Below, one piece after another: positions 6,001-9,000 of a DNA stretch of 64,000 bases. How positions within the stretch are numbered: the first letter of the stretch is position 1; the number at the start of each line of letters is the position of its first letter. The DNA comes from Podarcis tiliguerta (Eukaryota). Position numbers: made by a program. The stretch lies in assembly GCA_965153285.1 (NCBI GenBank), contig OZ229129.1. One strand, written 5' to 3'.

Positions 6001-9000
6001 TTTACTAATAAAGAAAACTGTAACAAAATAACATAAGGAGAGAAACTAAATACCGTATTTTTTGCTCTATAGGATGCACCCGACCATAGGACACACCTTG
6101 TTTTAGAGGGGGAGAACAAGGGAAAAAAATTCTCCCCCTCTCTGCTCAGCGCCCCTTCAGCAAAGCGGCAGGAGAAACGGAGCCCCTTCCATTTCTCCTG
6201 CCGCTTCGCTGAAGGGGTGCTGCACAGAGAGGGGGAGATATTTTTTTTCTTGTTCTCCCCCTCTAAAACAAGGTGCATTCTGTGCGTTCAAGGTGCGTTC
6301 ACCCAAAGCCTCCGGAGCGCAGTGGGAGTTCCTGCCGCACTCTGGAGGCTTCAGGCGGCTACCTTGGAAGCCTGGAGAGCGAGAGGAGTCGCTGCTCACT
6401 GACCCCTCTCACTCTCCAGGCTTCAGTGAAGGCAACCCGAAGCCTCAGGAGCACGGTGGGAGTTCCCGCTGGGCTCCGGAGGTTTCAGGTTCCTTTTGAC
6501 CTGCTCTTTGGGGCTGGCGGAGGTTTTGACAAAGAACAGAGGTTTTGACAAATGGACTACCAAAAACGCGTGAGGCAAACGGTGGAAGTCTTTTAAAAAT
6601 ATTTTAATTAAGATAGATAAGGATATGACGAAAATACATGACTGAATATAAATATAGATTGGAAATGGCTGTGTATAGTGGAATACTTATCTAATTTTAA
6701 AATTCTCATTCTTGATCTTATTTCTTCCTTTTCTTTATCTTCTTCTTGTTCTTTTCTTTTATATTTTACCTTTCATTTCTTGTCTTTATTGTGAATATTG
6801 TTTTGTAGAGGTGTAAATAATTGTAAATATCAGAAGAGGTAAAATGTTTTCTAATTTTCTATTGGTTACATGTATTTTCCTTTTTTCCTATATTTGTATT
6901 TTTTTCTAATTTGTACTCAATAAAATTAATAATAAATAAATAAATAAAGCTCATCTCCTCGTCCCACTTGGCAGCGTCAGGCAACTTCATGTTTTGTCAC
7001 ATGAAATCAAGGAACATGGAGGCCTGCAGTAACCGGCCCAGCCTCTGGAAGTGCCGTGTATGGTAAGAGAGACTCCACAGCTGCTTTGATCCCTTCGTAT
7101 TGCGAGAGGCTCTCTGGCGTCTCATGCTTGAGGAGGGTTTCCACCACTGCCTGAGCCTCGAGGTAGTTCCGCGAGTTTGTGTTCCACGTGATGGAAAACT
7201 TCAACACAGCCTCTGGAAGAAGGGGTTTGGGGAAGACACGTCAGGAAGGAGTGCAAGTTGCAGGCAGCGTGGCCACCTTGAACCAACACACCTCTCTTGC
7301 GAAGCGTGGCCAGATCTGGGCACACATCTGACCTGCGCCTTTCTTGAATGCAGGGAAGCAGATCCAACACCCCTCCACACCTAGTAGAAACAATTAATGA
7401 TGGGAGGGGTGACTGGGTTTATTCCAGACTACATGGCTTGCAGGAATGGGTTTTATAATATTTATAAAAGTACAACAACAACAACAATATGCATTATAAT
7501 CTTTGCTCTAGTATTACAGAGCTGGTGGAGCTAATTTGAGGCTGTGTACACACCATACATTAAAAGCATTATCGCTCTCCCCTGTAAGAATCCTGGGAAC
7601 TGTAGATTACCCTTCTACCGCATAGCTACAATTTGTAGCACCCTTTACAAACTGCAATTCCCAGGATTCTTTGGGAGAAATGTGCTTTTAATGCCTGTTT
7701 TTCCTGCAGCAGGCATGCTCAGCTACCCCTCTGGAAGCTCAATCCCACAGAAAGCTGTGACAACCACCAACTTGGATGGTTTTATGCAGGAAAGGCTATC
7801 AATGGCCACTAGGCACGATGGCTATGCTCTACCTCCACAGTCAGTGGCAGTAACCTTTGTGAATAGTAGTTGCTGGAAGATGCAGGAAGGGAATACAGAA
7901 TGCTCTTGTTTCCACAGGCCTCTGCTTGGCCACTGTGAGAACAGGGTGCTGGACTAGACAGGCCAATGTGGCCTCATCCAGCAGGCACTTCTTATGTCCT
8001 TACGTGGTTCAAGGGTTGAGATTGTGAGAAGGCATCTTCCAAAGCAATCCCACCCTGCAAATAGCTTTGGAGCCTTCTTGCCTCTAGCCTAGCCCTCACC
8101 CCTTTTCCTGTTCTTGCTGGAGTCTTCTTTTGCTTGCCACGCCTGCGGGCTCTCTTCCAGCCAACGGTGCCAATGACGGATCTTAAAAACTTGGGGTCGG
8201 TGAGATTCGGCAATCGCAGCACCTTGCGCCTGCTGGACCTCCTGAGCGGAGCGGGTTGTGTCTTGCTCCTCTTGAAGTAGGGTGAAATGTGAGGAGTGTT
8301 GCAAGCCGGTGTAGAGGCAGAAGGTCTGGCCGAGATGGTAGAGCACGGCTTCTCTGTCAGGGGCTTCTTGCTAACCCAGTGGAATACCTTCGGAGGTTTT
8401 GCGTTGCTATCACCGATGCCAAGGAGCCTGCATTCGCTCCATAGGACGCACACACATTTCCCCTTAATTTTGGAGGGGGAAAAGTGTGTCCTATAGAACA
8501 AAAAATACGGTACATCCCGAGGGAAGTCTGAGGCAAGAAGCAAGAAAAGGCAGTTGGTCTCTCTTAACTGACATTCTTAACTGAACATAACGGAACCCAC
8601 TGAAGGGAGGGGCTGATTCCGGAGCAAAACACAGAAGCCCCACCTACCAGATACCAAACATTCTACTATTCAAATTAGGCCCCAGTGTTTTCCTTACAAA
8701 GACACACTACAGTTTCCAGTGCATTTTCCTGTCACTATCCTTATTAGGAAAAGCCTGATGGTTCTTGCTTTATGTGTGCTTCAAAAGGCCAGGTTTTCTT
8801 TTATATAGAAAGGCATGAAAAATCCATATTTAAATTGTGCACACTTCCTGCTTATGTCCACATTTTCTACTTCTCCTAAAATATGCATTTTGGGGGCATA
8901 GTTTTCCCCTATTATATGCGTTTTGATGTGCATTGCTTAGGAACCAAAACTGCACCAGCAAGTTCAAAGTGTGTGTCTGACTGATAGCTGCGTTCTGACA

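What the first reader, a model, noticed from the sequence alone, without database searches (positions are those of the whole stretch)
6949..7380. TBL3 fragment looks half-spliced: upstream intron kept, downstream junction apparently joined
Seen: coding similarity starts exactly after a branch-like CCTGAC, a pyrimidine tract and a CAG acceptor (7213-7214), with non-coding DNA upstream. The LLPYT / HFQRL segments are contiguous, with ~5 nt missing at 7053/7054. Recalled, not verified: vertebrate TBL3 has its last intron near YT|ERHF. Inference: the copy came from a partially spliced pre-mRNA (RNA-templated insertion or repair), or from a genomic copy with a deletion removing the intron. It ends against the L1 A-rich tail in opposite orientation and has no poly(A) of its own.
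Basis: partly seen in the sequence, partly recalled or inferred. Interest (0 to 1): 0.65.

Follow-up and report, generated by a model that had tools for sequence, protein, structure and literature searches.

The report
Dead TBL3 gene fragment, multi-copy in wall lizards
This is a broken, non-functional piece of the ribosome-assembly gene TBL3 that kept one intron edge but lost the next intron, and it is one of several near-identical copies scattered in wall-lizard genomes, so it is an ordinary pseudogene fragment.

Summary
On the minus strand, 7213-7055 encodes TBL3/UTP13 residues EAVLKF...LLPYT. It starts exactly at a good 3' splice site (CCTGAC, 17/20 pyrimidines, CAG). It runs without an intron into HFQRL...KWDEEM (7053-6952), with 5 nt missing at the join, a TGA in place of Trp, and the last two codons and the stop gone.

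No other TBL3 exon lies in the 64 kb. The piece sits about 12.9 kb downstream of an AFF-family gene.

Indirect support for a parental intron after LLPYT: 10 of 10 bird partial TBL3 models end exactly there.

New result: four annotated Podarcis proteins, from at least three loci in P. lilfordi and one protein in P. muralis, carry the same frameshifted tail (LLPYT-ALPEAGPVTAGLHVP). They also carry the same non-TBL3 upstream DNA (window 8101-8387). So the intron-less, 5-nt-short junction arose once, and a block of at least 1.4 kb was then copied to several loci. It is not evidently a private repair event at this site.

Most likely founder: a 5'-truncated, partly spliced (semiprocessed) retro-fragment. 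Intron deletion by microhomology and an intron-less parent are not excluded.

The 'L1' label of the neighbouring tail is unverified.

The parts
7214..7260 (-). Intron-like 3' splice region kept upstream of the TBL3 coding piece: branch-like CCTGAC (7245..7240), pyrimidine tract (17/20 in 7235..7216), CAG (7215..7213).
   Evidence: Read directly. The position matches the exon boundary shown by the exon-skipped Lerista model TVVK|EAMLKF. Identity to the parental intron could not be tested.
7055..7213 (-). Equivalent of the second-to-last coding exon of TBL3 (EAVLKF...SLLPYT, 53 codons). The first G is shared with the CAG.
   Evidence: Pfam Utp13 E 1.8e-12. Human TBL3 residues 712-765, E 1.8e-15. 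52/53 identical to L. agilis and P. muralis TBL3.
7054..7054 (-). The join: a single G where the parent proteins require 6 nt (Glu-Arg). So 5 nt are missing, the frame shifts, and no intron is present.
   Evidence: The frameshifted read-through ALPEAGPVTAGLHVP-stop (stop at 7009-7007) is identical or nearly so in P0001, P0003, P0007 and P0009.
6949..7053 (-). Equivalent of the last coding exon (HFQRLGRLLQASMFLDFM*QNMKLPDAAKWDEEM). TGA at 6999-6997 replaces Trp. Truncated two codons before the parental stop. No 3' UTR or poly(A).
   Evidence: tblastn with the last part of P0004 alone: 33/35 identical, E 1.3e-19. Also.
6919..6948 (+). AATAAA plus an (AAAT)n tail of a retroelement-like, AT-rich sequence (about 6560-6948) that abuts the TBL3 piece in opposite orientation. 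Family unverified.
   Evidence: TRF period 4, 6.8 copies. Signal scan. No RT/EN domain in the ORFs tested. No target-site duplication found.
8101..8387 (-). Non-TBL3 DNA that travels with the TBL3 piece in the Podarcis copies. Gene models splice it (donor G|GTGAGG at 8100|8099) to the kept acceptor (7213|7212). Two different reading frames are used by different models, so it is shared DNA rather than a conserved coding sequence.
   Evidence: tblastn identities: P0009 74/82, P0003 61/66, P0001 49/59, P0007 40/47. In a search of longer proteins, this segment was found only in proteins that also carry the TBL3 exon (3 hits of 21 candidates).
7382..8100 (.). Intervening DNA between the shared upstream block and the intron-like stretch. 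It holds interspersed-repeat-like sequence and an (ACA)5 run at 7472-7487. Its origin is unknown (TBL3 intron or insertion).
   Evidence: 7901-7997 resembles 32875-32781 at 77%. Inverted 23-nt arms at 7586-7608 and 7649-7671. TRF.
6051..6079 (+). Left arm of a 29-nt inverted pair (26/29 complementary) whose partner is at 8484-8512. It is the head of a palindromic MITE-like element. Each arm is next to TA.
   Evidence: pair I3. The 24-nt head motif occurs exactly twice in 64 kb, with 0 expected.
8484..8512 (-). Right arm of the same inverted pair. Together the arms bracket 6051-8512 (2,462 bp), which contains the TBL3 piece.

Best explanation
Window 6949-7213 (minus strand) is a dead fragment of TBL3/UTP13, a WD40 protein of the small-subunit processome. 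It holds the coding sequence of the last two coding exons, fused without the intron between them. It is preceded by genuine-looking intronic DNA with an intact 3' splice site.

Most likely history.
(i) Inferred: a TBL3 pre-mRNA that had already lost its last intron, but still kept the intron before it, was reverse-transcribed and inserted. It was 5'-truncated inside that intron. This is a semiprocessed retro-fragment. The 5-nt loss at the join arose then or soon after, by one of two routes. Either an acceptor 5 nt downstream was used, or slippage occurred between short repeats.
(ii) Shown: the junction with its 5-nt loss is shared with at least four other Podarcis copies that also share non-TBL3 DNA more than 0.9 kb upstream. 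So a block of at least 1.4 kb containing the fragment was later copied to several loci. The copying was at DNA level or by an unidentified mobile vehicle.
(iii) Shown for this copy: it has decayed further, with TGG to TGA and truncation two codons before the stop against an oppositely oriented A-rich retroelement-like tail.

It has no TBL3 function. In other copies the kept acceptor is used by gene predictors to build short chimeric 'TBL3-like' models.
For: Identity of the fragment: Pfam Utp13, the human TBL3 structure chain, and lacertid TBL3 at 52/53 and 33/35.

New location: 60 residues of TBL3 upstream of EAVLKF gave no hit in the window (best E 0.11). The full-length proteins P0002 and P0004 hit only 7213..6952. 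The neighbouring gene is an AFF family member whose last exon ends near 20092.

Kept intron edge.

Parental intron after LLPYT: 10 of 10 bird partial models end there.

Single origin and later copying: of 66 significant hits (191 candidates) to the 68-aa read-through, exactly 4 cover it fully, including the out-of-frame tail. These are P0001 (P. muralis) and P0003, P0007, P0009 (P. lilfordi, on contigs of 51.1 and 97.0 Mb). P0003 and P0007 differ in sequence, so they are separate loci. The same four match window 8101-8387.

Partly processed retrocopies are a described class: passages read in PMC3449122 and PMC5470649.
Against: No poly(A) on the TBL3 strand and no target-site duplication were found. 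Two of the classical retrocopy hallmarks are therefore missing, although the 3' end is truncated, which could have removed them.

The lacertid TBL3 gene was not examined. The parental intron is inferred from bird gene models only, and those may all descend from one reference annotation.

If the parental Arg codon is CGG, the sequence ...ACG|g(t...intron...)GAG CGG CAC offers a CGG/CGG microhomology. That would give exactly this product by plain DNA deletion, or by slippage in an intron-less parent. In that case the position of the 5-nt gap is weaker evidence for splicing.

Other partial Podarcis copies (P0006, P0008) carry the previous exon and no 5-nt gap. This shows that TBL3 3' ends also duplicate by another route.

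The vehicle of spread is unknown.
Confidence: 0.5

Rival explanations
1. DNA-level duplicate of the 3' end of TBL3 (introns included) that later lost the last intron by a microhomology-mediated deletion. The deletion ran from the CG|g at the donor to the CGG of the Arg codon and took 5 exon bases with it.
For: In the second frame the window reads CGG (7056-7054) directly before CAC, as expected after collapse of two CGG copies. P0006 and P0008 show that multi-exon partial TBL3 copies without the gap exist in P. lilfordi. No poly(A) or target-site duplication was found. The kept upstream intron edge is what a DNA copy would have.
Against: It needs the left breakpoint to fall exactly at the exon end. 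A 3-nt microhomology is weak guidance. It also needs the parental Arg codon to be CGG, which is unknown. No intermediate copy was seen, and none could be looked for.
Confidence: 0.22
2. The lacertid TBL3 gene has no intron after LLPYT, having lost it in the lineage. On this reading the piece is simply a genomic copy of the last exon plus part of the last intron. The 5-nt gap is an ordinary slippage deletion.
For: Introns at 3' ends are lost often (established knowledge, no call). The intron position is inferred only from birds. A CGGAG-CGG direct repeat, if present in the parent, would favour a 5-nt slippage at that spot regardless of any intron.
Against: Vertebrate intron positions are usually conserved. 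The gap falls exactly at the boundary where the bird models stop. For a random indel, that is roughly a 1-2% coincidence over about 265 coding bases (my estimate).
Confidence: 0.15
3. Vehicle of spread: the block is carried by a mobile element. One option is 3' transduction by the plus-strand retroelement that ends at 6948, with TBL3 antisense in the read-through. The other is a composite element bounded by the inverted 29-nt arms at 6051 and 8512.
For: The retroelement-like tail abuts the fragment directly. The 24-nt head motif occurs only twice in 64 kb, inverted, bracketing the fragment, with each arm beside TA. Copies lie on different chromosome-sized contigs. L1 3' transduction is a described process (PMC5470649, passage read).
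Against: No A-rich tail lies on the plus strand between 6949 and 10000. No target-site duplication was found. No transposase, reverse transcriptase or endonuclease was found in the ORFs tested. Each arm belongs to its own palindromic MITE-like element (pairs I1 and I12), so the bracketing may be chance. Whether other copies share these borders could not be tested.
Confidence: 0.2
4. A private RNA-templated repair or insertion event at this very locus.
For: The structure is compatible, and this locus could in principle be the founder of the family.
Against: The same junction and flank are present at several other loci. With at least five copies, the prior that this one is the founder is low. 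This copy carries extra private damage (TGA, L-to-S, truncation).
Confidence: 0.05

Closest known systems
Semiprocessed (partially processed) retrocopies, e.g. rodent preproinsulin I
   Same: Some parental introns are absent while another is kept. The copy sits at a new genomic location. The class is described in PMC3449122 (passages and figure legend read) and mentioned in PMC5470649 (passage read).
   Different: Here only a 3' fragment is present, starting inside the kept intron. There is no poly(A), no flanking direct repeats and no promoter. The join is 5 nt short. The copy is dead, and it was copied further as part of a larger block.
5'-truncated processed pseudogenes made by LINE machinery
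   Same: 3'-biased fragment of an mRNA-like template, with loss of an intron. 5' truncation is a stated hallmark (PMC5470649).
   Different: The poly(A) remnant and target-site duplications, which are stated hallmarks, were searched for and not found. Intron sequence is present at the 5' end.
Duplicated (unprocessed) pseudogene fragments and segmental-duplication families
   Same: Several near-identical copies share flanking non-genic DNA on different chromosomes. The intron edge is kept.
   Different: An unprocessed copy should keep the last intron, if the parent has one.
L1 3' transduction of flanking DNA
   Same: A host fragment sits immediately downstream of a retroelement-like tail and is dispersed to several loci.
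   Different: No second tail or target-site duplication was seen within 3 kb. The element is not shown to be an L1.

Membership tests
TBL3 / UTP13 (Pfam Utp13 domain, PF08625) | Significant match to the Utp13 C-terminal domain | tested here: met
   E 1.8e-12, 47.8 bits against a cut-off of 25.9, profile positions 65-116. The second piece matches positions 113-136 at 21.9 bits, below the cut-off on its own. Human TBL3 and yeast Utp13 chains were hit in the PDB.
TBL3 / UTP13 (functional gene) | Full-length open frame with the N-terminal WD40 repeats | tested here: not met
   Only residues 731-819 of the 821-aa protein are represented. There is a frameshift, a TGA, and no other TBL3 exon in 64 kb.
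Semiprocessed retrocopy | At least one parental intron absent at an exon-exon join | tested here: inconclusive
   No intervening sequence lies between the LLPYT and HFQRL pieces. That the parent has an intron there rests on 10 of 10 bird partial models ending at LLPYT. The lacertid gene was not examined.
Semiprocessed retrocopy | At least one parental intron (or part of it) retained | tested here: inconclusive
   Branch site, pyrimidine tract and CAG lie exactly at the exon start. Identity to the parental intron is not testable with these tools.
Semiprocessed retrocopy | Poly(A) remnant at the 3' end | tested here: not met
   The fragment stops two codons before the stop. No T-run on the plus strand in 4000-6900 could be its tail.
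Semiprocessed retrocopy | Flanking target-site duplications | tested here: not met
   No exact 9-mer or longer from 6938-6962 occurs in 1-6900. No 18-mer match with up to 3 mismatches was found elsewhere. The 5' border of the fragment is unknown, so the test is partial.
Semiprocessed retrocopy | New genomic location away from the parent | tested here: met
   The fragment lies 12.9 kb downstream of the last exon of an AFF-family gene. No further TBL3 exons are present.
L1 (for the neighbouring element) | ORF2 endonuclease / reverse transcriptase remnants | tested here: not met
   None of the 10 ORFs tested from 1..9706 has such a domain. There is only a copia-type gag fragment on the other strand. 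Shorter ORFs were not scanned.
L1 (for the neighbouring element) | AATAAA and an A-rich 3' tail | tested here: met
   6919-6948. This feature is shared by many non-LTR elements and SINEs, so it does not identify L1.
TIR DNA transposon (composite 6051-8512) | Terminal inverted repeats with a target-site duplication | tested here: inconclusive
   29-nt arms, 26/29 complementary. The motif occurs only twice in the window. A TA lies beside each arm if the repeat is taken to start at CCG. No transposase was found, and other copies are not testable.

The most novel reading that the evidence does not exclude
The 5-nt-short join could be a fossil of a real alternative acceptor of TBL3 (GAGAG|G, a frameshifting isoform), captured from a partly spliced transcript. 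The resulting block could then have become a small Podarcis-specific family of transcribed chimeric genes. These would reuse the preserved TBL3 acceptor to append a Utp13 C-terminal segment with a new 15-residue tail to unrelated upstream exons. The block would have spread by a so far undescribed TIR-bounded or retroelement-driven vehicle.
Probability: 0.08. Interest if true: 0.5.

Novelty: new member of a known kind. Interest (0 to 1): 0.25.

Why it matters
The biological weight is limited, because this is a decayed gene fragment. It has three uses.

First, it flags several short 'transducin beta-like protein 3' or 'beta 3' entries in Podarcis annotations as products of a duplicated pseudogene block, not real TBL3 paralogues.

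Second, it offers a clean small case for asking how a partly spliced gene fragment is formed and then spread. The parental Arg codon (AGG or CGG) and the borders of the genomic copies would separate aberrant splicing plus reverse transcription from DNA deletion.

Third, a shared derived 5-nt gap is a handy marker for dating the family within lacertids.

Tried and rejected
- Real TBL3 locus: rejected. Full-length lacertid TBL3 proteins hit only 7213..6952. The 60 residues before EAVLKF gave only noise.

- Upstream block 8101-8150 as a diverged copy of the small TBL3 exon (KED..KN resemblance): rejected as chance. The neighbouring exon is 98% identical to the parent while this stretch is not alignable.

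- L1 identity of 1..6948: no RT or EN domain in the ORFs tested. No second copy in the window.

- Target-site duplications for the tail junction: none.

- Second A-rich tail for a transduced segment, or a poly(A) for the TBL3 strand: none.

- Direct repeat 4755-4914 / 8542-8699 as LTRs: about 160 bp, 80-87% identical, no LTR ends seen. Left open.

- Rfam and tRNA scans of the window: nothing.

- The listing of cluster members for copy counts and accessions: the query could not be made.

- Literature: no paper holds both TBL3 and Podarcis. None of the 12 papers listed holds TBL3.

Each piece was searched on its own.

So no lizard DNA beyond the window was seen.

- Not fetched: two unnamed hits (P0062, P0058) that extend past LLPYT.
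Full report
**What is there**

The window has no N. On the minus strand, 7213..7055 translates to EAVLKFSITWNTNSRNYLEAQAVVETLLKHETPESLSQYEGIKAAVESLLPYT.
- It matches the Pfam Utp13 domain (PF08625) at E 1.8e-12, 47.8 bits against a gathering score of 25.9.
- It matches residues 712-765 of human TBL3 in the SSU-processome structures 7mq8/7mq9/7mqa at E 1.8e-15.
- The best protein hits are lacertid lizards. Podarcis muralis and Lacerta agilis TBL3 are 52/53 identical. 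More distant squamates, birds and turtles fall to 73-89% (70 hits among 100 candidates; tblastn).

Immediately upstream the minus strand reads ...CCTGACGTGTCTTCCCCAAACCCCTTCTTCCAG. CCTGAC lies at 7245..7240, and 17 of 20 bases are pyrimidines. The G of the CAG (7213) doubles as the first base of the Glu codon. The in-frame residues before that point (RVFPKPLLP) are unrelated to TBL3. So similarity starts exactly at a well-formed acceptor.

**The join**

The Thr codon of LLPYT is 7057-7055. A single G follows at 7054. CAC TTC CAG AGG CTG (HFQRL) then begins at 7053. All full-length TBL3 proteins seen have Glu-Arg between T and H, so 5 nt are missing and no intron is present.

The second piece was searched on its own with the matching part of the L. 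agilis protein. It aligns 7056..6952 to residues 785-819 with 33/35 identities, E 1.3e-19. A TGA (6999-6997) replaces the conserved Trp. Similarity stops two codons before the parental stop.

I searched the two exon-equivalents separately. I did not build or search a joined, frame-corrected model.

**Not the gene itself**

Full-length lacertid TBL3 proteins hit nothing else in the 64 kb. The 60 residues preceding EAVLKF gave only noise (best E 0.11 at an unrelated place).

The window instead holds an AF4/FMR2-family gene on the same strand.
- A C-terminal homology domain exon lies within 22680-23204 (PF18876, E 2.4e-27; AFF4 chains at E 2.4e-15).
- The last exon lies within 20092-20292, covering profile positions 225-263 of 264.

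The TBL3 piece lies about 12.9 kb downstream of that gene's end.

**Is there a parental intron after LLPYT?**

No tool here holds lizard genomic DNA, so this could be approached only indirectly.

All ten 130-131-aa bird entries named 'TBL3 protein, partial' were fetched. All ten start at DVTEIEE and end exactly at ...SLLPYT, while full-length proteins continue with ERHFQRL.

Two exon-skipped models mark neighbouring boundaries:
- Lerista P0023 joins TVVK|EAMLKF, the very boundary where the window's acceptor sits.
- Limosa P0027 joins SCLK|DVTEIE.

This supports an exon end after LLPYT in sauropsids. The bird models may all derive from one reference annotation, and lacertids were not tested.

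**The key new result: a family**

Several short annotated Podarcis proteins contain this exon. Four of them end in ...SLLPYTALPEAGPVTAGLHVP, which is exactly the window's out-of-frame read-through of the 5-nt-short join. They are:
- P0001 (P. muralis)
- P0003 and P0007 (P. lilfordi, on a 51.1-Mb contig, differing from each other in sequence)
- P0009 (P. lilfordi, on a 97.0-Mb contig)

A search with the 68-aa read-through gave 66 significant hits among 191 candidates. Only these four cover the query fully. The other 62 cover 66-94%.

The same four also match window 8101-8387, which is not TBL3. The identities are 74/82, 61/66, 49/59 and 40/47. Different models use two different reading frames there. 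That segment was found in longer proteins only together with the TBL3 exon (3 hits of 21 candidates).

The models join a donor G|GTGAGG (8100|8099) to the kept acceptor (7213|7212), as read from the sequence.

The junction with its 5-nt gap therefore arose once. A block spanning at least 7010-8387 was copied afterwards to at least three loci in one genome.

Other partial copies carry the preceding small exon and an intact ERHF join (P0006 and P0008, on a 59.1-Mb contig). A further copy is spliced to different upstream exons and stops at ...ESLLQ (P0069/P0070). So TBL3 3' ends have duplicated repeatedly in this genus.

**How the join may have formed**

Three routes fit, and the parental Arg codon would separate them.
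- If it is AGG, the missing bases GAGAG end in AG, and use of an acceptor 5 nt downstream gives the observed sequence.
- If it is CGG, the donor region ...ACG|g and the exon's CGG form a 3-nt microhomology. Its collapse deletes the intron plus 5 nt.
- If it is CGG and the template was already intron-less, a CGGAG-CGG repeat could simply slip.

In the second frame the window reads CGG before CAC, which is compatible with all three.

I favour a partly spliced, 5'-truncated RNA-derived fragment. The left edge of the gap coincides exactly with the inferred exon end, which splicing explains without further assumptions. Partly processed retrocopies are a described class (PMC3449122, passages read; PMC5470649, passage read).

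Against this reading, two hallmarks named in those papers were looked for and not found: a poly(A) remnant and flanking direct repeats. The truncated 3' end could have removed them.

**The neighbour and possible vehicles**

The plus strand carries AATAAA and (AAAT)n at 6919-6948, directly against the fragment. An AT-rich stretch precedes it. I could not confirm that it is an L1:
- None of the 10 ORFs tested has an RT or EN domain.
- There is no second copy in the window.
- There is no target-site duplication.

No further A-rich tail lies on the plus strand up to 10000, so 3' transduction has no positive support here.

A 29-nt inverted pair (26/29 complementary) at 6051-6079 and 8484-8512 brackets the fragment. 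Its 24-nt head occurs only twice in 64 kb against 0 expected. However, each arm belongs to its own palindromic MITE-like element.

A direct repeat of about 160 bp (4755-4914 and 8542-8699, 80-87% identical) also brackets the region.

Whether any of these borders is shared by the other copies cannot be told without their DNA.

**Verdict**

The event was not evidently private to this site.

The thing is a decayed member of a small Podarcis family of TBL3 3'-end fragments. It is best filed as a semiprocessed retro-fragment that was later duplicated, with DNA-level intron deletion and an intron-less parent as live rivals. Interest is low to moderate.

**What stayed unchecked**
- The lizard's own TBL3 gene and the genomic copies.
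- Cluster membership (could not be made).
- Two unnamed hits extending past LLPYT, which were not fetched.
- The closed collections metagenome contigs and viral contigs.

No paper holding both TBL3 and Podarcis was found. None of the 12 papers listed holds TBL3.

Noticed in passing
window 20092-23204 and 51839-53047, minus strand: Exons of an AF4/FMR2 (AFF) family gene. C-terminal homology domain pieces lie in 22680-23204 (E 2.4e-27) and 20092-20292 (profile 225-263 of 264, so the gene's end). A 402-codon open exon at 51839-53047 has a weak AF4-interaction motif. Which paralogue it is was not settled, as only AFF4 chains are in the PDB hits.
   Followed up: partly
window 6051-6320 and about 8420-8512: Two palindromic MITE-like elements share the head TACCGTATTTTTTG(C/T)TCTATAGGA. 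They lie in inverted orientation around the TBL3 piece. The left one has 97-nt arms that are 87% complementary (6085-6181 and 6188-6284).
   Followed up: partly
window 4755-4914 and 8542-8699: A direct repeat of about 160 bp, 80-87% identical, with no other copy in the 64 kb. It brackets the whole region. Its nature is unknown.
   Followed up: partly
window 5284-5442, minus strand: Fragment of a copia-type gag domain (PF14223, E 1.7e-6, just above its cut-off). This is a decayed LTR-retrotransposon remnant.
   Followed up: no
window 7901-7997 / 32781-32875 and 9593-9839 / 26822-27062: Interspersed repeats, each in inverted orientation to its partner (77-78% identical). The stretch 7500-8000 between the TBL3 acceptor and the shared upstream block looks SINE-like, with inverted 23-nt arms at 7586-7608 and 7649-7671.
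   Followed up: no
protein hits P0062 and P0058: Two hits from an unnamed source align past LLPYT into the read-through part of the query (90% and 94% coverage, 67-69% identity). If they came from transcripts using the same shifted join, they would bear on the alternative-acceptor idea.
   Followed up: no
Podarcis proteins P0006, P0008, P0069, P0070: Further partial TBL3 copies in Podarcis without the 5-nt gap. Two include the preceding small exon and the true C-terminus. One locus is spliced to unrelated upstream exons and stops at ...ESLLQ. So the short 'TBL3-like' entries in these annotations are probably pseudogene-derived.
   Followed up: partly
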